A stretch of DNA of 64,000 nt from a virus. Position numbers and translations under genes: made by a program. This document shows positions 35,596-46,304 of this stretch, in pieces. The DNA lies in IMG/VR virus record IMGVR_UViG_3300024327_000544; one strand, 5' to 3'. Below the pieces are notes generated by a model. That model was not told the DNA's origin, made no database searches, and was given only the letters and a program-made list of their open reading frames with translations. Positions within the stretch are counted from its first letter, which is position 1, and each line of letters begins with the position of its first letter.

Positions 35596-37446
35596 TTATA
35601 CTTCTAGTCCGGAATCTTCTTTTTCGCCCTGTGGTTCAGCTGGTCTAGGAGAAGCATATGAATATGCATCACCTACACGTGATATCTGTCCTGCTTCTAA
35701 CATATCATCCAATAACTTTTGTACTTGCATTGGACTACACTTCAATGCACGAGCAATTGAAGTAGCTGAAGCTGGCGAATCATCAGAAGCAAATTCGGCA
35801 CCAACAGGTACTGCCCTTTTTACACGACCAAAAGAACTACCACCTGCTAGATATTCAAGTATATTATTTTCGAGAGTTCCGTCTTTCTGTTCTGCTGCCA
35901 TTTTCTGTTTATACTTCCGTACGAAGGAAACACCTGTACTTTCTTTCACTGTTGGCTCCATCTTTATTTTGTTATCGACCTTACCGGTCTCTTTTACTTT
36001 GGATCCGATTTCATCAGAATCCTCTTCTTCTTTTTTAGCTTCATCATAAGTTGGATCAGGCGCTGATTGTTGCTTTGCAATTATTTCTTTGGCCTTCTCA
36101 TAAGCAAGCTTTCTAATTTTTTCTTTAAATACTCTACGCCTTGCATCAATAGTTTCAGGAACCTCTTCTTCAGTACCTTCCAATGCAGAAAACGCTAAAT
36201 TCGCAAGTTTTGAACGCGTTGTAGAAGCTCCAGCGTCTTTCTTGATTCCGCTCATACCTCCATCATCAGTCCGTCTAGCATTTTCGGCATCTTTTTGTTT
36301 CTTCCTTAATGCTCTATCTTTATCTGCTTGAGCCTGTCGTTTTTCCTGTTCCTTATCATTTGCATTGGCTTGTGTTTCACGAGCTTTATCTGCTTTTTTT
36401 GCATCAGCCTGATTGTCTTGATTGCCTGACTTTTGTTTTATCTTATTATTGCTAGCTTGTTTATCAGCAATCTTTTCCGCATCTGATTTTGCTTCATCTA
36501 GATCATCATCTTCACCAATAATTGAACCAGCAGCTTTTTCTAAATCTGCCAACTCACACTCATCTGCTAATTTTTGAACTTCAGGTGAAGGTGCATCAAT
36601 TGTTCCCATCTTAGTGGCATATGCAAGAGATACTAATCTGCGTTCTGGAGTTCTAATTAAACGTTCTCCGATCTCTGCCCATGTAAGACCATCATACTTC
36701 TGATGCATTTCAGACATCAACCAGCCATGATATTTTTCTGTCTTCATCTTCTTCATGACTTTATCTGCAATCTTTTGATCATTCATTAAGATCATTAGAA
36801 CAGATTGACGTGGCTCTTCTTCCATGCTATCTAAGTAAGGTGCTAACTTATCATAAGAGCGTTGTTTAATTAACTTTGCAGCGCCTTCAAGAGACAACTT
36901 ATCTCTACCTCTTGTTACTTTAGCTAATGCAATGGTTTCTTTGTAGATATCCACCGCTCCAGGTTTTCCATGAGAAACTGATTCTTTAGTACCATATATT
37001 TGATCATCCATATTTGTAACTGTATCTTGTTTTAGGGAATACTCAACCTCTTCTGGATCATCTTTCTTTTTCTTCTTCTTCTGTTGCTTTTTCATATTAA
37101 CATCTTTATATTCATCCTTAGACATTTCATCAACGTTTGCTGAACAATCACAATTCTTACATCCTTCAGGACATTCACAAGGCCCACCATCACAACAAGG
37201 ACAACCTTCGCCTTTATCTTCAACAGCCTTACTAATTGCTTTCCTTTTCTTATGTAGAAACTTATCAGAATCGTCTTCATCACCATCTTTATCTATATCT
37301 ACAAATTCGTCATCTGAACGATCTTTCCAATCTTGTTTAACTGCGTCTTTGTCCACAGGAGCGAGTTTTCTCTTCTCCCTTATCATCTCAATGTCTGCTT
37401 CTGTTATCGCCGAGTAATTCGCGGGATAATATTTTGACCAATCCAT
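35596..37446 (-). CDS. Large charged internal-head-like protein with Cys cluster and C-terminal winged helix
   Basis: N-terminal ..AITE-A, DIDKDGDEDDSD..KKRKAISKA, CPCCDGGPCECPEGCKNCDC, and SATSIARALKCSPMQVQKLLDDMLEAGQISR. Confidence 0.55.
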   Translation of the reverse strand: MDWSKYYPANYSAITEADIEMIREKRKLAPVDKDAVKQDWKDRSDDEFVDIDKDGDEDDSDKFLHKKRKAISKAVEDKGEGCPCCDGGPCECPEGCKNCDCSANVDEMSKDEYKDVNMKKQQKKKKKKDDPEEVEYSLKQDTVTNMDDQIYGTKESVSHGKPGAVDIYKETIALAKVTRGRDKLSLEGAAKLIKQRSYDKLAPYLDSMEEEPRQSVLMILMNDQKIADKVMKKMKTEKYHGWLMSEMHQKYDGLTWAEIGERLIRTPERRLVSLAYATKMGTIDAPSPEVQKLADECELADLEKAAGSIIGEDDDLDEAKSDAEKIADKQASNNKIKQKSGNQDNQADAKKADKARETQANANDKEQEKRQAQADKDRALRKKQKDAENARRTDDGGMSGIKKDAGASTTRSKLANLAFSALEGTEEEVPETIDARRRVFKEKIRKLAYEKAKEIIAKQQSAPDPTYDEAKKEEEDSDEIGSKVKETGKVDNKIKMEPTVKESTGVSFVRKYKQKMAAEQKDGTLENNILEYLAGGSSFGRVKRAVPVGAEFASDDSPASATSIARALKCSPMQVQKLLDDMLEAGQISRVGDAYSYASPRPAEPQGEKEDSGLEV

Positions 37447-37448
37447 TA

Positions 37449-38891
37449 TTAGCTCCTGTTGGCAATAATTTTGGAAATCATCTTACTGACTCTTTCCGCT
37501 TGTTGTTCGCGTTTTTTATTTTGTTCTGATTTAAACTCCTCTCCCGGAGTCAAATCTACAAGGTACTGTCTATATTTATCTGTTCCGATTTCTAACTGTC
37601 GGCCTTCTTTAGCTCTATCCTTGTGCCATTCCTTTAAACCAAGTATTTTTTGTAATTTAGAACTTACTGGTTTATTAATATCTATGTTATTTGTAGGCAA
37701 TTCATCTATTCGTTCATTCATATAAGAAAGATTTGCTATGTCATAATCAACATTTTCACCTAACAATGTAATAAAATCGGCGGCCTTCTTTGTGTGCTCT
37801 CTCATCCGCGATACTTCCCATAATGCTACTTTAATCGCGCCACCAAATGCCATTTCATACTTTTCCCAAAATTCTTCTGTTTCTTTTAAAGCACGTTTAT
37901 AATATTCTTGTTTGGGCTTCGTTGTAGCAAATTGTTGTAGATATTGAAACACTTCTTTTGTATATTCTTCCACATGATAAGTCTTATTCTCATAATGAAT
38001 CTTATCCATACATAATGATTCTTTATCTACCGAAGAAGAAGGTGGTGCTTTTGCCGGCACTGGCTTATTTTTTACTTTAACAACCGGACTCGCAGGTTTC
38101 GCTCCTGAATCTGCTTTTTGCATTATACTATCTATTCCTGCATCATCGTTTGTTCTTGGTGGAGCAGTTTTAGATACAAATTTTCCCATTGCTGCTTTAG
38201 GATCCTTAGTAGTATTCTTCATTGGAGCAATCGGTTTCCCAGGACCCAATTTTTCTTTTATTTGTGCTTCAATAACAGATAATCTCATACCTTTTCGTAA
38301 TGATTGATATAATGAACGTTTATCTTTATCAGATAAATTATCTGGTAAACCTTCTTTAAAATTATCAAAATCACCATCAACGGCATGTGATCTTAATTTA
38401 GAAGCTGACATTCCTGTGGCATCGTCTGCATCTGGATCTCTTTCACCAGCGCTTTCTATTTCTATTTTTTTAAAATCATAAAAACCATGAGCTTTGCCAT
38501 CAACACCATTATATTGAGGTAACAATTTTTTAAATTGATTTACTCTATCACTTCCTACAACCATAATAACTTCTTCATATCCTTCATCATGTAATAATGA
38601 AAGGGATTTCAATGCATCTTTAGGTTGATCACCTGAATACTTAAAAATGTCTTCGCCTTTCGGTTTAAACATTTTTTTCATCCATTTAATCTTTTCTTTA
38701 TATTCTAATGGATTCTTTTTAGAATCTTGTGTAGAACTAGGGAATATAAAAGCATCACCACGATTGCGTTTAGCAACTGCGGTTACCTTATTAACTAAAA
38801 TCTCGTGTCCAATTGTAGGGGGGTTAAACCGACCAAAAGCAAATACTGCTGTCTTTAACGACCCTTCCCGTAATTGAGTAAATGAAATCAC
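37449..38891 (-). CDS. HIGH-superfamily nucleotidyltransferase (T4-like 'cytidyltransferase') with long C-terminal extension
   Basis: FGRFNPPTIGH, KNPL, VVGSDR and GMSASKLR. Confidence 0.85.
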   Translation of the reverse strand: MISFTQLREGSLKTAVFAFGRFNPPTIGHEILVNKVTAVAKRNRGDAFIFPSSTQDSKKNPLEYKEKIKWMKKMFKPKGEDIFKYSGDQPKDALKSLSLLHDEGYEEVIMVVGSDRVNQFKKLLPQYNGVDGKAHGFYDFKKIEIESAGERDPDADDATGMSASKLRSHAVDGDFDNFKEGLPDNLSDKDKRSLYQSLRKGMRLSVIEAQIKEKLGPGKPIAPMKNTTKDPKAAMGKFVSKTAPPRTNDDAGIDSIMQKADSGAKPASPVVKVKNKPVPAKAPPSSSVDKESLCMDKIHYENKTYHVEEYTKEVFQYLQQFATTKPKQEYYKRALKETEEFWEKYEMAFGGAIKVALWEVSRMREHTKKAADFITLLGENVDYDIANLSYMNERIDELPTNNIDINKPVSSKLQKILGLKEWHKDRAKEGRQLEIGTDKYRQYLVDLTPGEEFKSEQNKKREQQAERVSKMISKIIANRS

Positions 38892-40099
38892 ATTCCCCCT
38901 CGAACCTTATCGAGATATGCGTCTTTAACAGACTGGTTTAATTTGTCGTTAGACATTTTTTCAAAACCCTTTACTTCTTCCACATCCTCTTTGTCTTTTG
39001 CTGCTTTTTCTGCTATTCTCAAAACCGAGGCAGCTAGATCACTTTTTGGTCCTGTGAACGGTCCGCTACCAAAATAATCATGACTCTCGTTTTGTTCTTT
39101 CTTCTCATCGCTCTTTCCAGAATACTTACTCTTTCCTTTCATTTCACCCTTGGAGAGAGGTCCTAGCTTTTCAAAGTCTTTATCTCTTGGTTTCTCCCAC
39201 TCTTCTTTTTCTACATTCCCCGTTTTCTTGTTAGCAGCTTTACCAAATTTAAATGCTTGATAATCTTTTTTTGCTGCTTTGAAATCTGCACGTTTCGATT
39301 TAAGATTTTGTCCTGGTGGTTGACTAGTGTCACCAACTCTTGAAGCGGCTTTAGCCGATACGGCTCTTTGTTGTCCAGCTTTCGCTTTAGCTGATTGTTG
39401 CGCGCGTTGTAATAAGCCTTTTGAAAGTTCATCAACAGGTTCTTCTGTAGATGTATAACTGTTATACATATTCCTCTTAACACTACTTAATCTCTTATCA
39501 CGGGAATCTTGGCTTTCGGGCTTGGCCGGCTTTTCGCCAGCTGCCGCACTGAATTTTGCGGATTGTTTCTCTCTCTTCTCTGCCTTCTTCTTTGTCGCCT
39601 TCTCCCTTTCTGTCCTTCCTCCGTCAAACGCTGCCAAATCATGGTGGTCTTTTTGTTTCTCCATATCTTTGTGTGCTGCACTTGCGGCTCGCTTTAAAAG
39701 ACCAGTTGTAATTTCAGCGAAAGTCTTCTTAATATCTCCGCCGCCCTTCCATTCTATTCTTGCATCAGAGGCTTCTTCTTTTGGGCCGTATCCTTTAGGT
39801 GTTACATCTTTAATATTAAGTTTTTCTCTACCTTTTGCAATACGAGCTGCGACTTCTGGTTTTAAATCACCTTTTTTGTCAAAAAACTTTGCAAGGTGAG
39901 GTGGTAACTTTGATGCTTCTTCCATCTCAACTTCTCCTGCTCTTGCCCTTTTAAGCTTAGCTTGAGTTTCTGGAGAAGAAGGAGTTTCTCTAGCCTTCTT
40001 CCTTCTCTCTGATTCTTTTCTTTTATTATCATACATATCTATGCCGGATGAATCAACTTCATTAACTGGAGATTCTGTATATTCTTTATATGTTTTCAC
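38888..40099 (-). CDS. Lys/Glu-rich internal-head-like protein with internal repeats
   Basis: MKTYKEYTE N-terminus; repeats AEITTGLLKRA and DELSKGLLQRA. Confidence 0.6.
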   Translation of the reverse strand: MKTYKEYTESPVNEVDSSGIDMYDNKRKESERRKKARETPSSPETQAKLKRARAGEVEMEEASKLPPHLAKFFDKKGDLKPEVAARIAKGREKLNIKDVTPKGYGPKEEASDARIEWKGGGDIKKTFAEITTGLLKRAASAAHKDMEKQKDHHDLAAFDGGRTEREKATKKKAEKREKQSAKFSAAAGEKPAKPESQDSRDKRLSSVKRNMYNSYTSTEEPVDELSKGLLQRAQQSAKAKAGQQRAVSAKAASRVGDTSQPPGQNLKSKRADFKAAKKDYQAFKFGKAANKKTGNVEKEEWEKPRDKDFEKLGPLSKGEMKGKSKYSGKSDEKKEQNESHDYFGSGPFTGPKSDLAASVLRIAEKAAKDKEDVEEVKGFEKMSNDKLNQSVKDAYLDKVRGGM

Positions 40100-40362
40100 C
40101 AGTCGCTCCTATCTCCGCCACCCTTCCATTCTATTCTTGCATCGGTACCTTCTTCGATAGCATCTAAGAACCCTTGTAACATATATGGTAATTTTTGTGG
40201 ACGTCTCATAAACTTATGAACATAGTCCTCATATACTTGTGCTAGTTTATTTTTAATTCTATCAGGCGCGGAATCAATGCAATCACGTAATGCATCAATC
40301 AACTGGTCAGAATACTTAGATTCTTTCAGGTCGCGCTTTGAGAATTCTTTGTAATTTTTCAT
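40096..40362 (-). CDS. Small putative internal head protein
   Basis: MKNYKEF..LKE N-terminus. The ATG overlaps the upstream TGA. Confidence 0.6.
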   Translation of the reverse strand: MKNYKEFSKRDLKESKYSDQLIDALRDCIDSAPDRIKNKLAQVYEDYVHKFMRRPQKLPYMLQGFLDAIEEGTDARIEWKGGGDRSDW

Positions 40363-41585
40363 TGGTCCCAATCCTTTTCTGCGGTAAAATTTATTCTACT
40401 AAATTCCATTCTGTTAACTAATTTTAATCCCTTACCAGAATCAAATGAGTCAATAGCAACAAACCCTTCTGGTTTTGTTACTTTATACCCGGATGAGGTT
40501 TTAATAAAGGTAGAAGTTAAACCTTTTACCTCTTCTAACTTCTCTACAATATATAGCTTAATATTATTTATTAAAGCCATTATACGAAAAACAGTACCTA
40601 TCTGATCTATATTCCCATTTAATTTCTTTAAGTATTCATCAACAGTCATTTGTTTTCGTGTACGACCTTTTTCTGATTTTAACTTTGCAACATCTTTATC
40701 TAACTTAGCTTTAATAAATTTTACACAATCTCTTGCTAACCTTTCTTCTATAAATTCACCTTCTCTGACTTTAGAATTTATATAGGTCTTAATATGAACT
40801 TTTAATATATTATCATCTTTGATACTATCAAGAAAACGACCATTGACTTTATTAAAATCTTTTCCTAACTGAGACAACATATCTGTTACTTTCTTTTCAT
40901 CTGCCTTTGTAAATGTTGCTGTTCCACTTACATCTGTAAAGTCCGCATTAACAGCCCAAACATCCTTATGTGATGTCCATTGATTTACATCTGCACCAAA
41001 CTCAGCTTTCAAATCTGCTAAGTCTTCTTGTCCTGCTGTTCTGTATGTTGTATGAAAAACAATTCCAATCTTTGCTTTAATTATGGCATTTGCTAATTCT
41101 GTATTTAAAGGAACGGCATAAGTTATCGTATTAGGTGTAAACGTAATCTGTCTTTCCTTATCAATTGTCTGTATCTTCTTATCTTTATCCTCTGTCCAAA
41201 GAACATCACCTTGAAAAATATTACCTGGAATCTTTAACTTAGGTAAATGTTCTAATAAAGCACTCATTTTAGCATGAAGAGGGCCGCCACCGAAATGTTC
41301 ATCAACATCAGCTTGAATAAAACATGGGCGTCTCATTGACTTATAATCAACAAAGAATTTTCCATTAGGATGGATACCGGCGACTATAGCAGGAGCGCCA
41401 TCCCATTTAACAGTAACATTAACTGCTTCTTTATTATGACCGGCTAACATGTTTCTTAAAGATCTTAAAAAATCAATAGCACCTCTAGTACCATTAACAC
41501 CACCATTCAACACCTCATCTTCGAGATGTTCCATATGAAGATTTTTTCCAGAGGCTTCTGCAAGAAATTGTTTATATTGTTTCAC
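40359..41585 (-). CDS. ATP-dependent RNA/DNA ligase-superfamily nucleotidyltransferase-like protein (recalled as DUF6267-type)
   Basis: VTVKWDGAPA (motif I), IFQGD (III), IVFH (IIIa), PEGFVA (IV) and LKLV (V). N-terminus MKQYKQFLAEA. Confidence 0.65.
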   Translation of the reverse strand: MKQYKQFLAEASGKNLHMEHLEDEVLNGGVNGTRGAIDFLRSLRNMLAGHNKEAVNVTVKWDGAPAIVAGIHPNGKFFVDYKSMRRPCFIQADVDEHFGGGPLHAKMSALLEHLPKLKIPGNIFQGDVLWTEDKDKKIQTIDKERQITFTPNTITYAVPLNTELANAIIKAKIGIVFHTTYRTAGQEDLADLKAEFGADVNQWTSHKDVWAVNADFTDVSGTATFTKADEKKVTDMLSQLGKDFNKVNGRFLDSIKDDNILKVHIKTYINSKVREGEFIEERLARDCVKFIKAKLDKDVAKLKSEKGRTRKQMTVDEYLKKLNGNIDQIGTVFRIMALINNIKLYIVEKLEEVKGLTSTFIKTSSGYKVTKPEGFVAIDSFDSGKGLKLVNRMEFSRINFTAEKDWDQ

Positions 41586-43111
41586 CTTACTCCCAATTTC
41601 CGTTTCATATCCGCAAAACTTTTTCCAAGATCTCTATCAGCATTATCTCTACCAAATTTCAATTCATTTTTAAGAGAAAAATACCTGTCCAAAGCTGCTC
41701 CAAGTTCATCGCTCACCTTTTTAAAATCTTCCGGTGAATTGTTATCATTCATCAAACCTTTTGAAGAGTAGCCAATTGGCTTACCTCTTTTATTTTTTAG
41801 AGCTTTCACACTAGAATATTCAAAAGCCTGTTTATTAGATTGTTTTTTACTAAGTGATTTAAAAGTTGATTCTAATGAACTTCTTATTGCATTTTTTTCT
41901 TTTATCTTTTTCTCAAAATCGGTATCACCAGGATCAAAAATTGCTTCATTTTTGAAAGGACCTGTTTTTATTCTTGTAGATGATCCTGTACCAGAAAAAC
42001 CTCCTCCTCCAGTCCATCTTAACATCCATTCAGTACCTGGATTCCATTCTTTAGAAGTATAGAGATCTTTCCCATCTTTAAATGAGATGACATCCAATGA
42101 TATTTTATCAAATAATGTAACATAATCCCATCCATGTTCTTTATAATCATTTAATGCATTGGCGTTCCATTGTTTTATAAATTCATTAGGATCGGTTAAT
42201 CCATTCTTTACAGTCTTATTAAAAACATATTTCGAGGCTTTGTCAAAAGGCATTGCTTCAACACAAATATCATGCCATAGTTTTTCGCAAGCTTTATCTG
42301 CTTGTCTTTGTGAACCGCCATTTTTTTCCATCCATAAAGTAGTATATTTTTTACTACCAAGAGAAAGGGCTTTAGGTATACCACCTTGCGCATTGCTATC
42401 CTTATAAACACTTCTACCTCCAAGACCCATTTTATCTGCTTCTTTTGCTGTTATATCGCTACCTAAATCTTTGAACGCATTAATAAAAAATAATTTAGCA
42501 TCTGCAAATTTGTCAGGTTTGGAAAACGTGCCACCAGATGCTTTAAGTTCTACATTATAACCGTCTGCTAATTTGACATCGCCTTTATTATCAGCATTAC
42601 CCTTCGTTGCTCCGGGAGTAGCTAAAATAAATAAAATTTCACCTGGACCAATATTCTGATTATCTATTTTTGTTATATTTTCTATAAACTTATCTTTAAC
42701 TTTTGGCCATATGGGGCTTCTAGTATTAACATATGAATCTAATCTTACTACTTTTTTGTGACTATCTTGTACCATTTTTTTACAATCAAATACTTCACCG
42801 GCTAAAAGTTCTTTTAAAAAATCCATTTGGTCATTAGCTGGTGCACCTGATTTATTAATTGCTAAAATGATAGAGTCAATAAAAGCTTCTTTATTCATTT
42901 TTATGTTAGCAGTTTTACACTTCTCATCAAGAAGAGCAACCATAACATCTCGTTGCATAGCTTCGAGAACAGATCTTAAAACCTCATCTTCTTGAACATC
43001 TTCGATTTTATCGAGCACTTGTTTTTTGAGTGCGGGCGTTACTCTTTCTAAGAGAGTTCGAATATCCTTCTTAATATAACCCGGTGCCATAAAAGTTGTA
43101 TATGTTTTCAT
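41582..43111 (-). CDS. Hypothetical protein with PD-(D/E)xK nuclease-like motif
   Basis: IGPGE..GDVKLADGYNVELKAS. Start refined to MKTYTTF at 43111. Confidence 0.5.
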   Translation of the reverse strand: MKTYTTFMAPGYIKKDIRTLLERVTPALKKQVLDKIEDVQEDEVLRSVLEAMQRDVMVALLDEKCKTANIKMNKEAFIDSIILAINKSGAPANDQMDFLKELLAGEVFDCKKMVQDSHKKVVRLDSYVNTRSPIWPKVKDKFIENITKIDNQNIGPGEILFILATPGATKGNADNKGDVKLADGYNVELKASGGTFSKPDKFADAKLFFINAFKDLGSDITAKEADKMGLGGRSVYKDSNAQGGIPKALSLGSKKYTTLWMEKNGGSQRQADKACEKLWHDICVEAMPFDKASKYVFNKTVKNGLTDPNEFIKQWNANALNDYKEHGWDYVTLFDKISLDVISFKDGKDLYTSKEWNPGTEWMLRWTGGGGFSGTGSSTRIKTGPFKNEAIFDPGDTDFEKKIKEKNAIRSSLESTFKSLSKKQSNKQAFEYSSVKALKNKRGKPIGYSSKGLMNDNNSPEDFKKVSDELGAALDRYFSLKNELKFGRDNADRDLGKSFADMKRKLGVR

Positions 43112-43118
43112 TTTTTCT

Positions 43119-43346
43119 CTATGGTACAATTACCGTATCCCCTTTTGTCCACTTGTCCATAATATCATTAAGTTCTTTAGCCATCTTTTTAATTGAATTA
43201 GCTTCCGCGCCCATCTGACCGTTATTCCGGGCCCATCTAGTAATTCTATTAGCGCGCTTAGCTACATCCTCTATTGATTTTACAGCTAACTTACTAAATG
43301 CCATAGTCTCTAGAACTTCTTTTGCAGAATCTGCTACGTTATCCAT
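43119..43346 (-). CDS. Small hypothetical protein
   Basis: ATG at 43346 (MDNVAD) immediately after the upstream stop. Confidence 0.55.
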   Translation of the reverse strand: MDNVADSAKEVLETMAFSKLAVKSIEDVAKRANRITRWARNNGQMGAEANSIKKMAKELNDIMDKWTKGDTVIVP

Positions 43347-43347
43347 A

Positions 43348-43869
43348 TTACTTCCCTGAATTTTGCTTACACCATTGTTCAATTGATTTGACCAATTTTT
43401 TATCAATTGAAGTTAATTTTCCATTTAAATTCTCACTCGCTCCATGAATATCTACTGGGTCACCGGCTAGCCAACCGGGAAGAGTACCCTGTAAATTGTG
43501 CCATTTCATGTTGCGGTTTCCTTTGTTGCGACCTATGGGGTCGTATACATCATCAGAATCATCAAGAAGCTTCGTCACATCCTTTCCTTTTTTATCTTGA
43601 AGGGTTATCGAAACGTTCCTAATTTCTTCTTTGTATCCTTCTCCTCCTTTTTCGCCTTCAATCATAATTCCCGGAATAATAAAGAAGTCTCCACATTTTA
43701 TTTTTTTACCGTAATGGTTACCAGTACTATAATCTGTTTCAAGCTTATCGAACTGTTTAAAGCCTTTTTCAATATCACGAGCAAGATCTTCTTTTATATA
43801 TCCACCAAAATGCCCTCCGCTTAATCCATCCGTCCATCCTTCGAGGGTTAAATCCTTATAAGTTTTCAT
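43348..43869 (-). CDS. Hypothetical protein with capsid-targeting-like N-terminus
   Basis: MKTYKDLTLEG with an AAGGA SD. Confidence 0.65.
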   Translation of the reverse strand: MKTYKDLTLEGWTDGLSGGHFGGYIKEDLARDIEKGFKQFDKLETDYSTGNHYGKKIKCGDFFIIPGIMIEGEKGGEGYKEEIRNVSITLQDKKGKDVTKLLDDSDDVYDPIGRNKGNRNMKWHNLQGTLPGWLAGDPVDIHGASENLNGKLTSIDKKLVKSIEQWCKQNSGK

Positions 43870-43908
43870 ATTTTCCTTTTTGATTAATTATTAATATAGT
43901 TTACTTAA

Positions 43909-44529
43909 CTATTTAGTCTTTTTAAGATACCGATATTTTTCTTTTGCCAGTGTTCTCATCTTATCTGCAACCTTAGTATCTATTGTAGCATACCTTGCAT
44001 ATGCATCGCAAGCTTTTTCTTTCTTTTTATAAAGAAACATGTCAAAAGCCAGTTCAGAACTGTAAGCATCTATCTCAAAGGGGCTTGAAAAATAATCAGA
44101 ATCGGAATTAAATGCTTGTCCGTCTTTACTATCATCAAATTGCAACGAATGGGTTAATTCATGGACAAATGTAAGAACAAATTGTTCTTTATATCTTTCC
44201 CATTGTTCTTCTGGAATGTATAATTGGTGGGTATATAGTTCTGGGGATAAATTTACTGTAATCTCTATCTCAGATTCAGAATAGTGTTCTTGTGGTACAT
44301 TTGCTGCACCATCATATGTTAATTCATATAATGCATGTGTTCTATCTTTTCTTATATTAATATAACAAGGAAATCCTAATTGTTCTTCGATTAGTTCTCC
44401 CATTTTGAGAGAACAATTTCGCCAGGATGTTATATATTTTAATGTTGATTCATTATATGCCCTTTCAAAGCATTTAAAAGACTGACATGCTGTTTCTATA
44501 TTTTCTTTAATAAGATCTAATTCATTCAT
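43909..44529 (-). CDS. HExxH zinc-metallopeptidase-like protein
   Basis: FVHELTHSLQ..Y..SPFEIDAY. Start refined to 44529, overlapping the gp41 stop. Confidence 0.55.
   Translation of the reverse strand: MNELDLIKENIETACQSFKCFERAYNESTLKYITSWRNCSLKMGELIEEQLGFPCYINIRKDRTHALYELTYDGAANVPQEHYSESEIEITVNLSPELYTHQLYIPEEQWERYKEQFVLTFVHELTHSLQFDDSKDGQAFNSDSDYFSSPFEIDAYSSELAFDMFLYKKKEKACDAYARYATIDTKVADKMRTLAKEKYRYLKKTK
43910..43917 (-). promoter_or_regulatory. Late-promoter-like ACTAAATA
   Basis: Variant of the T4 late -10 element at the head of the MKTY gene cluster. Confidence 0.45.
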
Positions 44530-45934
44530 ATTGGAAAGCACCGAAGTCCGCTTTATTGCGCATTCTATTGCCAGTGGATTGATCAAATAATGGTTCATCA
44601 TCATCTTGCCCACTATCTGCAATATCGTCTTGGGCTTTTTGTTCTACGTCATATAATCTCATTTTAGGTCTATCTATTCCAACAATGAACTTCTTATAAG
44701 ATGTAGGATCATTATATCTATTTTTTAATTGTTTTACAAGTAATTGATTTAACTGTTCCATTTCATCTGAAGATATTATAGCAAACATAAAGTCTGCTGT
44801 TGCTGGTAAACCAAAACTTTCAGATGTATCTTCTAATCCTATATCTGTACTTGTAAATCCTGTTCTTGTAGTCTGTGTTGCAGAAAGAATTGGGACATTA
44901 AATTCTACTGCTAATCCTCTCAATTCTTCTGCAATTGATTTAATATAAGTATACGAATTTACGTTTGATCCTGTTCTAATTCTTGCGCTTGAACATATAT
45001 TCAAATAATCTATGAATATTATATCAGGAGTAAAATTACGTTTCAACTTTAATTCTGATAAAAGATTTTTAAAATGCATTGCGCTTGCTGATGCAGTAGG
45101 ATATTCTTTAATAATAATTTTACCCTTAGTCTTTGCATTTATCTTATCAATTTTCTTTTGATACATATCCCTTGAAAGTTCTTCTAATTGACTAATAGGT
45201 ATATCTAAAAGATTTGCATCTATTCTTTCAGCGATCCTTTCTTCAGCCATTTCCAAAGTAATATAAAGAACATTCTTGTTTATGGATAAACAACTAGCAG
45301 CATGATGGCACATAAAAAGAGACTTACCAACACCAGTTCCAGCAAGACATATATTAAGAGTTTTATTAGGTAACCCTCCTTTAGTGATCTTATTAAACAT
45401 TTCAAGGTCGAATTCAATCTTCTCTTCAACTCTATGATAAAATTCAAATCTTTCATTTGCATCTTCAATAAAATCATGACCTACATGAGGATCAAATGAT
45501 ACTGCTAATGCATCTGACAATAAAGACGGAATAGCGCCTTTTTGTAAATTTGTTTTATTGTCGTTACCTTCTAAAATAGCAATCGCATCAACAACTGCAT
45601 TATAGATTGCTTTATCTTGACAGAAGGTTTCCGATTGTTCAATAAGCCAAGCAGTTACATCTTTATCCTCAGGTTTATCTAAGGTATTAATTATTTCTGT
45701 AGCTTTTTGGTATTCATTCTCATGCAAACCTTCTTGTTGATCTAAATCAATTAGAAGACTTTGTTTTGTGGGTAGACTATTATGTTTAACAATATAATCT
45801 TGTACCTGTTTGAAGATAAGTTTTTCTGCATTATCTTCAAAATATTCTTGCCTTATATAAGGGGAAACTTTTCGGGAAAAAGGTTCATTGTGTATCAAAT
45901 GAGATAGTATTAGGTGCTCTATCCGTTGATTCAT
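44522..45934 (-). CDS. gp41: Replicative DNA helicase (T4 gp41)
   Basis: LAGTGVGKS Walker A, ITLEMAEE, IFIDYLN, SATQTTR and SESFGLPATAD. Confidence 0.96.
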   Translation of the reverse strand: MNQRIEHLILSHLIHNEPFSRKVSPYIRQEYFEDNAEKLIFKQVQDYIVKHNSLPTKQSLLIDLDQQEGLHENEYQKATEIINTLDKPEDKDVTAWLIEQSETFCQDKAIYNAVVDAIAILEGNDNKTNLQKGAIPSLLSDALAVSFDPHVGHDFIEDANERFEFYHRVEEKIEFDLEMFNKITKGGLPNKTLNICLAGTGVGKSLFMCHHAASCLSINKNVLYITLEMAEERIAERIDANLLDIPISQLEELSRDMYQKKIDKINAKTKGKIIIKEYPTASASAMHFKNLLSELKLKRNFTPDIIFIDYLNICSSARIRTGSNVNSYTYIKSIAEELRGLAVEFNVPILSATQTTRTGFTSTDIGLEDTSESFGLPATADFMFAIISSDEMEQLNQLLVKQLKNRYNDPTSYKKFIVGIDRPKMRLYDVEQKAQDDIADSGQDDDEPLFDQSTGNRMRNKADFGAFQYE

Positions 45935-46304
45935 CGTCCTCCACAAAAGTTATTGGGTTTGTCATTTCTGCGTTGTCTTGTTCTAAATATCTGTCCCATA
46001 ATAATTTCACTAATATTTCACCAATCATAAATTCAAATTCTTCACCCTCTTCATCGGTGTGTTCAACACCTTCTAATTCGGGTGGTACCATTATAATATC
46101 ATATTCATACTTAGCAGTACTTTCATCTTCTGCATCTGGCGGGGCCACTTGAAATTTACCATACTTATAAGTGACACCTTTAAAGGGTCCGGTTGTCATC
46201 TCTATACATTGTTGTGTAACATCATTAGGATGTTCTGGATGAGGAACTAATCTATAATAAGTATTAATCCTAACATAATCCTCTTGTGTTAATTCATTCC
46301 CCAT
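45885..46304 (-). CDS. Probable gp40-like head vertex assembly chaperone
   Basis: Lies between uvsX and gp41 as in T4. G.FKGV.YKYG and FE..IG.IL pattern. Confidence 0.5.

What the first reader, a model, noticed from the sequence alone, without database searches (positions are those of the whole stretch)
35596..43917. Cluster of genes with T4 capsid-targeting-like N-termini: a candidate head-packaged, ejected enzyme set
Seen in sequence: consecutive ORFs begin MKTYKDLTLE-G (43869), MKTYTTF..LLE (43111), MKQYKQFLAE-A (41585), MKNYKEF..LKE-S (40362), MKTYKEYTE-S (40099), MISFTQLRE-G (38891) and ..SAITE-A (37446). A late-promoter-like ACTAAATA sits at the head of the run. Established: the T4 internal proteins IPII/IPIII carry the capsid targeting sequence MKTYQEFIAE, are cut after Glu by the gp21 prohead protease, and are injected with the DNA; T4 IPI* is an anti-restriction factor. 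Inference: this phage loads apparent enzymes, not only small IPs, into its head. These include a ligase-superfamily protein, a HIGH nucleotidyltransferase, a nuclease-like protein and a wHTH protein. They could act immediately on infection, for example against host defences.
Basis: partly seen in the sequence, partly recalled or inferred. Interest (0 to 1): 0.88.

Follow-up and report, generated by a model that had tools for sequence, protein, structure and literature searches.

The report
Head-loading tags on phage enzyme cargo
An uncultured marine T4-like phage puts the short address tag that phage T4 uses to load proteins into its head on a row of unrelated proteins, two of them clearly enzymes, so it most likely carries ready-made enzymes in its capsid and injects them with its DNA.

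Summary
Five consecutive minus-strand genes (43869-38888) start with MK[TQN]Y..[FLY], and all five fall among the nine best matches to the T4 capsid targeting sequence (CTS) out of 2468 candidate starts in the 167-kb genome. The cytidylyltransferase start (MISFTQLRE) is a 9-residue variant of this tag, as its gene family shows. The seventh start (w616) is doubtful.

The genome has a T4-type prohead protease, scaffold and capsid protein. The tag sits outside the folded domains and occurs on unrelated families.

Published virion proteomes of two cultured relatives support the reading. In S-CREM2, five of the six best-tagged genes are virion proteins (P = 0.003). In S-SM1, the best-scoring start in the genome is the virion-detected cytidylyltransferase. 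DUF6267 homologues without the tag are absent from both virion lists.

DUF6267 has an RNA-ligase-type fold with the catalytic lysine. The nuclease and wHTH calls remain unproven.

I found no paper linking the tag to these virion proteins. This scan has noted the same pattern on at least eight other genomes. Packaging, cutting and ejection are inferred for this phage, and the anti-defence role is speculation.

The parts
43910..43917 (-). Late-promoter-like ACTAAATA, about 40 nt upstream of the first tagged gene
   Evidence: It is a 7-of-8 match to T4-type TATAAATA and overlaps the stop codon of the upstream gene. TATAAATA and CTAAATA are both rarer in the window than in shuffled sequence. Its function is not shown.
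43909..44529 (-). w237 (about 206 aa from ATG 44529): small HExxH (HELTH) protein. Possible extra cargo, starting MNELDLIKENIE.
   Evidence: The likely start at 44529 overlaps the gp41 stop codon. There is a weak NCBIfam metalloprotease match, E 7.7e-4, well below the cut-off. It has Leu rather than Phe/Tyr at position 4. Membership is uncertain.
43348..43869 (-). w173: 173-aa protein of unknown fold, leader MKTYKDLTLE
   Evidence: T4-CTS score 23, rank 6 of 2468. SD-like motif before the ATG. No family match.
43119..43346 (-). Small ORF (about 75 aa from ATG 43346) without a CTS-like leader
   Evidence: Only sub-threshold Pfam matches. It lies inside the operon, but its role is unknown.
41582..43111 (-). 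w509: 509-aa protein. Leader MKTYTTF, then an invariant LLE at residues 20-22. Candidate PD-(D/E)xK motif GPGE..GD..ELK.
   Evidence: T4-CTS score 25, rank 4. Nine homologue clusters; E22, E158, D178, E188 and K190 are invariant. The AlphaFold model is poor, pLDDT 54.5. The ESM Atlas gives only a weak lead to restriction endonucleases, score 0.80.
40359..41585 (-). w408: DUF6267, an RNA/DNA-ligase-type nucleotidyltransferase. Leader MKQYKQFLAE, then A.
   Evidence: PF19782 at E 5e-91, with the match starting at residue 15. T4-CTS score 31, rank 2. Model pLDDT 90.5, with residues 1-11 below 50. VIA-align Z 8.0-8.7 to RNA ligases 5cot, 1xdn, 1s68, 6n0t and 2hvq. Top Foldseek rows are DNA ligase I. 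K60, D62, E373, G374 and K388 are invariant.
40096..40362 (-). w88: 88-aa protein. Leader MKNYKEF, with LKE at residues 12-14.
   Evidence: T4-CTS score 21, rank 7. Shares the module DARIEWKGGGD with w403.
38888..40099 (-). w403: 403-aa Lys/Glu-rich protein, leader MKTYKEYTE
   Evidence: T4-CTS score 24, rank 5. No family match.
37449..38891 (-). w480: (T/H)xGH nucleotidyltransferase ('cytidylyltransferase', NMNAT-like) with a long C-terminal extension. Leader MISFTQLRE, then G.
   Evidence: PF01467 at 23.8 bits, cut-off 21. phrog_3041 at E 9e-64. L7, R8, E9 and E208 are invariant in the family. Orthologues are in the virion proteomes of S-SM1 and S-CREM2.
35596..37446 (-). w616: 616-aa acidic/basic modular protein, last gene of the block. 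No CTS-like leader, only AITE then A at residues 13-17.
   Evidence: Not among the high T4-CTS scores. The C-terminus has sub-threshold HTH matches. A 21-residue stretch is 86% identical to an HTVC008M cluster protein. Membership is doubtful.

Best explanation
The block downstream of the gp41 helicase gene is an operon of capsid cargo genes.

Each product starts with a propeptide of 9 to 22 residues of the T4 CTS type: Met, usually Lys, an aromatic at position 4, a hydrophobic at position 7, then (L/I/V)-x-E. As in T4, the propeptide is thought to dock the protein onto the scaffolding core while the prohead assembles. The gp21-type protease is thought to cut after the Glu. The mature protein would stay in the head with the DNA and leave through the tail at infection.

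The cargo includes an RNA-ligase-type nucleotidyltransferase (DUF6267) and an NMNAT-like (T/H)xGH nucleotidyltransferase. These two are fused in other phages and so probably act together on a nucleotide or RNA substrate. A candidate nuclease and several charged proteins of unknown fold make up the rest.

Shown here: the tag, its statistical strength, its portability, the protease gene, and the two enzyme folds or families. Shown by others in relatives: the presence of tagged proteins in purified virions. Inferred: packaging in this phage, the cut sites, ejection, and any role in the cell.
For: 1. Five consecutive genes rank 2, 4, 5, 6 and 7 of 2468 starts against the T4 CTS. They keep the positions that matter in T4: residues 4 and 7 for targeting, and 8 and 10 for processing (PMC9026906).

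2. The genome has a Peptidase_S77 (gp21) gene and gp22- and gp23-like genes beside it.

3. The tag is portable.
- It is conserved across the cytidylyltransferase family.
- It is present on 39 of 94 full-length DUF6267 representatives by a strict pattern, and absent from others.
- It is present on the w509 family.
- It is present on non-homologous proteins at the same position in Melnitz and HTVC008M.
- It lies outside the Pfam domain and in the only low-confidence stretch of the DUF6267 model.

4. Virion proteomes of relatives agree.
- S-SM1 virions hold the cytidylyltransferase (MKKFSAFLNE, 25 counts) and its cluster neighbours GC1453, GC1454 and GC1455.
- S-CREM2 virions hold a SAM hydrolase (MKDFDSFLEE), a kinase (MKRFDAFLTE), gp13 (MKDLHSFLTE), the cytidylyltransferase (MKNFSSFLTE) and gp136 (MQTFSMFFSE).
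- Five of the six best-tagged annotated S-CREM2 genes are in the virion list, against a background of 52 of 219 (P = 0.003).
- The best-scoring start of the whole S-SM1 genome is the virion-detected cytidylyltransferase.

5. Natural negative controls exist. The leader-less DUF6267 homologues of S-SM1 and S-CREM2 are not in either virion list.

6. An invariant V-x-E208 lies exactly at the end of the catalytic domain of the cytidylyltransferase family.
Against: - There is no virion, cleavage or ejection data for this uncultured phage.
- The proteomes of the relatives show presence in CsCl-purified particles, not location inside the head. Their authors note that co-purification is possible (PMC10665884).
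- Two leaders end in T-L-E (w173) and Y-T-E (w403). Neither has Leu or Ile at P3, as the T4 rule (recalled from memory) requires.
- In S-CREM2 the best-scoring gene, gp83, was not detected. Some detected cluster proteins in S-SM1 (GC1453, GC1454) lack a clear tag.
- The late-promoter match is imperfect.
- The S-CREM2 enrichment test rests on six genes.
Confidence: 0.72

Rival explanations
1. The proteins are packaged through the leader but serve the particle itself. They would act as scaffold or core components, or as charge-balancing filling for the DNA, like abundant T4 internal proteins. They would not be enzymes that work in the next host.
For: w403 and w616 are long, charged, low-complexity proteins with no family match. 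In T4 about 1000 internal protein molecules are embedded in the DNA (PMC3012670). No activity has been shown for any cargo protein.
Against: DUF6267 keeps the ligase catalytic lysine and motifs IV and V invariant across 82 sequences. The cytidylyltransferase keeps its nucleotide-binding motifs invariant. The S-CREM2 cargo includes a SAM hydrolase, an enzyme type known from other phages to act against restriction.
Confidence: 0.13
2. The shared N-termini are not an address tag. They would reflect shared translation-start preferences (AAA as second codon, A/T-rich early codons), or 5' ends copied between neighbouring genes by recombination. The virion detections in relatives would then be co-purifying abundant late proteins.
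For: Met-Lys starts are common (28 MK.[YF] starts in the genome). A loose leader pattern is only mildly enriched, 15 hits against 9.3 expected. The S-CREM2 authors raise co-purification.
Against: The codons differ at synonymous sites and the start codons differ, so the DNA is not a copied repeat. The conserved positions are the aromatic at 4, the hydrophobic at 7 and the Glu at 9-10, not only Lys2. The tag predicts virion detection in S-CREM2, and leader-less homologues are missing from virions.
Confidence: 0.08
3. The leader targets the proteins somewhere other than the head interior, such as the outside of the capsid, the neck, or a non-virion site in the infected cell.
For: The cluster lies next to genes for surface or structural proteins: w189, an S-layer-like protein preceded by TATAAATA. 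Mass spectrometry cannot tell inside from outside.
Against: The leader matches the T4 CTS at the functionally mapped positions. T4-type protease and scaffold genes are present.
Confidence: 0.07

Closest known systems
Phage T4 internal proteins IPI, IPII and IPIII and their capsid targeting sequence (Mullaney and Black 1996; reviewed in PMC9026906 and PMC3012670)
   Same: An N-terminal tag of about 10 residues of the MKTYQEFIAE type, with an aromatic at 4, a hydrophobic at 7 and a Glu at the end. It sits on otherwise unrelated proteins and varies between related phages, in a genome with gp21, gp22 and gp23.
   Different: T4 IPs are small proteins of about 8-20 kDa (size from memory). Those with a known target are inhibitors of GmrSD-type restriction enzymes (PMC12373910). 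Here the tagged proteins reach 509 aa and include two nucleotidyltransferases. They form one operon after gene 41 rather than sitting at the T-even ip loci. Some propeptides are 14-22 residues long. No experiment exists for this phage.
Phage T4 Alt, an ADP-ribosyltransferase packaged in the head and cut by gp21
   Same: A real enzyme carried in a T4-type head, processed by the prohead protease and delivered with the DNA (PMC9026906).
   Different: The review describes Alt as having propeptides at both termini. It is a single protein, not a row of tagged genes. No Alt homologue was looked for here.
Virion-associated cytidylyltransferase, kinase and SAM hydrolase of cyanomyoviruses (S-SM1, PMC3037559; S-CREM2, PMC10665884)
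   Same: The S-SM1 and S-CREM2 cytidylyltransferases are homologues of w480 (45% and 36% identity). In S-SM1 the gene sits in the same block after gp41. These proteins were found in purified particles, and injection was proposed.
   Different: Those papers give no targeting mechanism and leave co-purification open. The words leader, targeting, N-terminal and cleavage do not occur in the S-CREM2 paper. In those phages DUF6267 has no tag and is not in the virion. Here it carries the best tag.
Ejection proteins of phiKZ-like and SPN3US giant phages, and the Dar proteins of phage P1
   Same: Many head-internal proteins, some of them enzymes, are processed by a prohead protease or loaded through dedicated partners, and act at the start of infection (PMC5694885, PMC9024508; listed).
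   Different: These are different capsid lineages or loading rules. I did not compare their sequences or cut motifs here.

Membership tests
T4-type CTS-directed head cargo (internal-protein-like) | N-terminal tag resembling MKTYQEFIAE, with an aromatic at position 4 and a hydrophobic at position 7 | tested here: met
   Met for w173, w509, w408, w88 and w403, with scores 21-31 against a mean of -7.5 and sd 6.4. Met for w480 through its family. Not met for w616.
T4-type CTS-directed head cargo (internal-protein-like) | Propeptide ends in a prohead-protease site, (L/I)-x-E, and is cut there | tested here: inconclusive
   The motif is present in w408 (LAE), w480 (LRE, invariant), w88 (LKE at 12-14) and w509 (LLE at 20-22, E22 invariant). 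w173 (TLE) and w403 (YTE) lack Leu or Ile at P3. Actual cutting cannot be tested here.
T4-type CTS-directed head cargo (internal-protein-like) | Genome encodes the T4-type prohead protease and scaffolding core | tested here: met
   PF03420 at E 2.9e-36, genome 160113-160562. A 430-aa acidic gp22-like ORF and a 442-aa gp23-like ORF follow it; these were identified by position and N-terminal sequence only.
T4-type CTS-directed head cargo (internal-protein-like) | Protein is physically present in purified virions | not testable with these tools
   This is an uncultured phage. Orthologues and analogues with the tag are in the S-SM1 and S-CREM2 virion proteomes, and leader-less DUF6267 homologues are not.
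T4-type CTS-directed head cargo (internal-protein-like) | Ejected into the host with the DNA | not testable with these tools
   No data exist for this phage or its relatives. This is inferred from T4.
T4-type CTS-directed head cargo (internal-protein-like) | Late expression | tested here: inconclusive
   ACTAAATA (7 of 8) lies 40 nt upstream of the first gene. The genes are tightly packed or overlapping. A perfect TATAAATA precedes the next structural gene. No transcript data.
Covalent nucleotidyltransferases (ATP-dependent RNA/DNA ligases), for w408 | Motif I KxDG with the catalytic lysine | tested here: met
   K60-W-D62-G63. K60 and D62 are invariant and G63 nearly so in 82 sequences.
Covalent nucleotidyltransferases (ATP-dependent RNA/DNA ligases), for w408 | Nucleotidyltransferase fold with motifs III, IIIa, IV and V in order | tested here: met
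   The first seven VIA-align rows are all RNA ligases, at Z 7.2-8.7 over 171-206 residues. The Foldseek top rows are DNA ligase I, at weak E 0.02-0.4. D127, H178, E373-G374 and K388 are invariant. Z is near the tool's stated noise level of 7-8, so this rests on fold and motifs together.
Covalent nucleotidyltransferases (ATP-dependent RNA/DNA ligases), for w408 | OB-fold or another known C-terminal substrate domain; ligase activity | tested here: inconclusive
   The model has a helical insertion at residues 227-350 between motifs IIIa and IV. No row in the searches matched an OB domain, but a missing match does not exclude one. Activity is not testable here.
(T/H)xGH nucleotidylyltransferases (PF01467, NMNAT/PPAT-like), for w480 | Pfam match above the curated cut-off, with the GRFNPPTxGH and SxSKxR motifs | tested here: met
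   PF01467 at 23.8 bits against a cut-off of 21. phrog_3041 'cytidyltransferase' at E 9e-64. G20-R-F-N-P-P-T26, G28-H29, S162, K165 and R167 are invariant. The match to NadD TIGR00482 is far below its cut-off, so the substrate is unknown.
PD-(D/E)xK nucleases, for w509 | Catalytic E/D ... (D/E)xK motif on a restriction-endonuclease-like fold | tested here: inconclusive
   E158, D178, E188 and K190 are invariant in nine homologues. The model is poor there, with pLDDT below 50 over residues 142-200. No Pfam, PHROG or NCBIfam match. The ESM Atlas lead to restriction enzymes scores only 0.80.

The most novel reading that the evidence does not exclude
T4-like phages of the ocean (Kyanoviridae and their relatives) may use one portable N-terminal tag to load a changeable set of enzymes into the capsid. 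This set would include RNA-ligase-type and NMNAT-like nucleotidyltransferases, nucleases, kinases and SAM hydrolases. If so, the injected proteome of some of the most abundant viruses on Earth could be read directly from genome sequence. The fused or adjacent DUF6267 and cytidylyltransferase pair would then be a pre-made nucleotide or RNA repair or counter-defence device that acts before any phage gene is expressed.
Probability: 0.45. Interest if true: 0.8.

Novelty: new variant of a known kind. Interest (0 to 1): 0.68.

Why it matters
Cyanophage papers have repeatedly found a 'cytidylyltransferase', kinases and other non-structural proteins in purified particles. They could not say whether these are real cargo or contaminants (PMC3037559; PMC10665884). 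A T4-type address tag on exactly these proteins gives a mechanism and a sequence rule. The rule can be tested with existing mass-spectrometry data and simple fusions.

If it holds, injected proteins can be predicted from metagenomes for a very abundant group of marine viruses. It would also show that the T4 internal-protein system, known for small restriction inhibitors, has been extended in nature to whole enzymes. It points to DUF6267 and its partner as first-minute effectors worth assaying.

Tried and rejected
- Megablast of the region against phage records found nothing.
- Sequence searches of DUF6267, the cytidylyltransferase and the w616 C-terminus against PDB chains gave no meaningful match.
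- The AlphaFold model of w509 was too poor for a fold search, so I ran none.
- Profile comparison of the w509 family with the proteins at the same position in Melnitz and S-SM1 showed no homology. That position therefore holds unrelated cargo in different phages.
- A loose regular expression for the leader is barely above chance. I dropped it in favour of the T4-CTS score.
- TATAAATA and CTAAATA counts do not show enrichment. Both are depleted.
- Literature searches for DUF6267 and for 'cytitidyltransferase' with cyanophage and virion found no paper. A search for 'capsid targeting sequence' with cyanophage returned one T4 review, which does not make the link.
- I considered and set aside the idea that the leaders are a DNA repeat.
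- I ran no further search on w173 or w403.

Full report
**What the window is.** The window is the minus strand of bases 7392-71391 of a 167,436-base viral record rated complete. All long ORFs run on the window's minus strand. The nearest cultured relatives by protein similarity are Methylophilales phage Melnitz, Pelagibacter phage HTVC008M and many cyanomyoviruses, all Kyanoviridae. The genome has a gp41-type helicase at 44522-45946 (named by synteny with those relatives) and a Peptidase_S77 prohead protease. gp20-, gp22- and gp23-like genes lie beside the protease.

**The observation.** Each start codon is preceded by a Shine-Dalgarno-like motif. The leaders use different synonymous codons and both ATG and GTG starts, so what is conserved is peptide, not a DNA repeat.

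To test chance without using the cluster itself, I scored the first ten residues of every candidate start in the genome against the published T4 CTS, MKTYQEFIAE. There were 2468 candidate starts of ORFs of at least 50 aa, on both strands. The mean score was -7.5 with sd 6.4.
- The five consecutive genes w408, w509, w403, w173 and w88 scored 31, 25, 24, 23 and 21. These are ranks 2, 4, 5, 6 and 7.
- Rank 1 (MKTFQEYIDE, 67 aa) and rank 9 (MKKFKTFIEK, 81 aa) are two adjacent small ORFs outside the window, between the gp13- and gp14-like neck genes. They look like classical small internal proteins.
- The cytidylyltransferase start MISFTQLRE scores poorly against the 10-mer. Its family shows it to be a 9-residue form of the same leader. 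Relatives read MKTYKSFMTE, MKTYQSFLAE, MRTFRQLRE and MTSFIELRE, and L7, R8 and E9 are invariant.
- The seventh protein, w616, has no such leader.

The leader positions that are kept are those mapped in T4: 4 and 7 for targeting, 8 and 10 for processing (PMC9026906).

**The tag is portable.** It lies before the Pfam DUF6267 domain, which starts at residue 15. It also lies in the only low-confidence stretch (residues 1-11) of an otherwise confident model with pLDDT 90.5. Among 150 representatives of the DUF6267 family, 39 of 94 full-length members match a strict leader pattern, for example MKTFKHFVTE, MKSYLEYIEE and MKTFKQFICE. Others start directly at the conserved HLEHLED motif.

The w509 family keeps MKTY..F and an invariant Glu at residue 22, after a conserved LLE. 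In Melnitz and HTVC008M the gene just upstream of DUF6267 encodes proteins with no detectable similarity to w509. They nevertheless begin MQGFKTFLSE and MLSFTGYSNLSE. This is the pattern known from the T-even ip loci: variable cargo behind a constant tag.

**Evidence from virions of relatives.** Sullivan et al. (PMC3037559) found 41 proteins in purified S-SM1 particles, among them 'a putative citidylyltransferase (T4-GC190)', with 25 peptide counts. In S-SM1 the block after gp41 reads GC1453, GC71, GC190, GC1454, GC1455 ... S-layer protein. GC1453, GC190, GC1454, GC1455 and the S-layer protein are all in the virion table. GC190 is the homologue of w480 and starts MKKFSAFLNE. GC1455 starts MLSFKELQE. 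GC71 is the DUF6267 homologue, starts MCDSTLS with no leader, and is not in the table. Across all 4501 candidate starts of S-SM1, the single best T4-CTS score belongs to GC190.

Liu et al. (PMC10665884) found 52 proteins in S-CREM2 particles. They wondered whether the SAM hydrolase, kinase and cytidylyltransferase are real cargo or co-purified. Their paper never mentions a leader, targeting or cleavage. I read the N-termini:
- SAM hydrolase: MKDFDSFLEE
- kinase: MKRFDAFLTE
- gp13: MKDLHSFLTE
- cytidylyltransferase: MKNFSSFLTE
- gp136: MQTFSMFFSE
- gp15: MNFSEFNE
- gp155: MSRFEELR

Undetected neighbours have no such start. Of the six annotated genes with a T4-CTS score of 16 or more, five are in the virion list. 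The background is 52 of 219, giving a hypergeometric P of 0.003. The S-CREM2 DUF6267 homologue gp87 starts MNKATKPLTHIEHPED, without a leader, and was not detected. So in two independent data sets the tag goes with presence in particles, and the same protein family without the tag is absent.

**What the cargo is.**
- w408 is DUF6267 (E 5e-91). Sequence search of PDB finds nothing. The model's best structural matches are all ligases: Naegleria RNA ligase, trypanosome REL1, T4 Rnl2 and fungal tRNA ligase at Z 8.0-8.7 over 171-202 residues. DNA ligase I leads the Foldseek list at weak E-values. K60 and D62 of KWDG, E373-G374 and K388 are invariant in 82 sequences. These Z values are close to the tool's stated noise level, so the call rests on fold and motifs together. 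A helical insertion (227-350) replaces the usual arrangement between motifs IIIa and IV.
- w480 is a (T/H)xGH nucleotidyltransferase with only a faint resemblance to NadD. Its substrate is unknown.
- The two families are fused in both orders in other phages: P0139, P0252, P0236 and P0257, and phrog_455. This argues that they work together.
- In the cytidylyltransferase family an invariant Glu (E208, in V-x-E) sits exactly where the conserved catalytic domain ends and a variable linker begins. It is a plausible second protease site.
- w509 has invariant GPGE, GD and ExK motifs, but its model is poor. The only outside support is a weak Atlas lead to restriction enzymes. 'Nuclease' stays a guess.
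- The w616 C-terminus gives several sub-threshold helix-turn-helix matches on the same 30 residues.
- w173, w88 and w403 have no family.

**Mechanism and its limits.** The best reading is T4-like: tag-mediated docking on the scaffold core, cutting after Glu by the gp21-type protease, retention with the DNA, and ejection.

Shown here are the tag, its significance, its portability, the protease gene and the two enzyme assignments. Shown by others is the presence of tagged relatives in particles. Inferred are packaging in this phage, the cut sites, ejection and function.

Weak points:
- Two leaders lack Leu or Ile at P3.
- S-CREM2 gp83 has a high score but was not detected.
- Some detected S-SM1 proteins have no clear tag.
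- The promoter match is 7 of 8.

An anti-defence role is attractive because T4 Ip1-3 all block GmrSD enzymes (PMC12373910) and S-CREM2 tags a SAM hydrolase. Nothing here tests it.

**Novelty.** The T4 CTS and packaged Alt are textbook knowledge, and virion-associated cytidylyltransferases are published. I found no paper that connects the two. The library does not hold most subscription journals, so an earlier mention cannot be excluded. This scan's own notes describe the same pattern on at least eight other uncultured T4-like genomes. Those are unchecked AI notes, not independent evidence. I class the finding as a new variant of a known kind.

Noticed in passing
L006:6135-6380 and L006:6377-6580 (genome 144134-144579, outside the window): Two adjacent small ORFs (81 and 67 aa) between the gp13- and gp14-like neck genes start MKKFKTFIEK and MKTFQEYIDE. 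The second is the best T4-CTS match in the genome. They look like classical small internal proteins. Neither has a Pfam match.
   Followed up: partly
window 40096-40362, 38888-40099 and 41582-43111 (minus strand): w88, w403 and w509 share a short motif, [ST][DE]xx[IL]xW[KT]GGG. In w88 and w403 it reads DARIEWKGGGD (13 of 15 residues identical). In w509 it reads TEWMLRWTGGGG, and there the two Trp and the three Gly are invariant in its family. These are the only three W[KT]GGG hits in six frames of the genome, and the motif is absent from the relatives I checked. Its meaning is unknown; it could be a second shared docking or binding element.
   Followed up: partly
window 43909-44529 (minus strand): The gene between gp41 and the tagged block probably starts at ATG 44529, overlapping the gp41 stop codon. 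It carries an HELTH zinc-protease-like motif and begins MNELDLIKENIE, a weak leader-like start. The only family match is far below its cut-off.
   Followed up: partly
window 37449-38891 (minus strand), residue 208: In the cytidylyltransferase family an invariant Glu in V-x-E marks the boundary between the conserved catalytic domain and a variable Pro/Lys-rich linker. This suggests a second protease cut that would free the enzyme from its C-terminal domain.
   Followed up: partly
whole window, both strands: TATAAATA (6 found, 12.5 expected) and CTAAATA (7 found, 20.9 expected) are both rarer than in shuffled sequence. This would fit selection against stray late promoters. A perfect TATAAATA sits at 34847-34840, just before the S-layer-like virion gene w189.
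   Followed up: no
proteins P0139, P0252, P0236, P0257 and phrog_455: DUF6267 and the cytidylyltransferase domain occur fused in one protein in both orders in other phages. Several DUF6267 proteins carry extensions of 100-550 residues at the N- or C-terminus.
   Followed up: no
genome 121028 (outside the window): A 2182-aa ORF begins MTKYFEFLES, a moderate T4-CTS match (score 14). I did not examine whether this large, probably structural protein is processed.
   Followed up: no
L011:37301-38014 and L010:21765-22115 (S-CREM2): S-CREM2 gp136 (MQTFSMFFSE), next to the small terminase gene, is a tagged virion protein. gp83 (MSTYEEYQAK), the top T4-CTS score in that genome, was not detected in virions.
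   Followed up: partly
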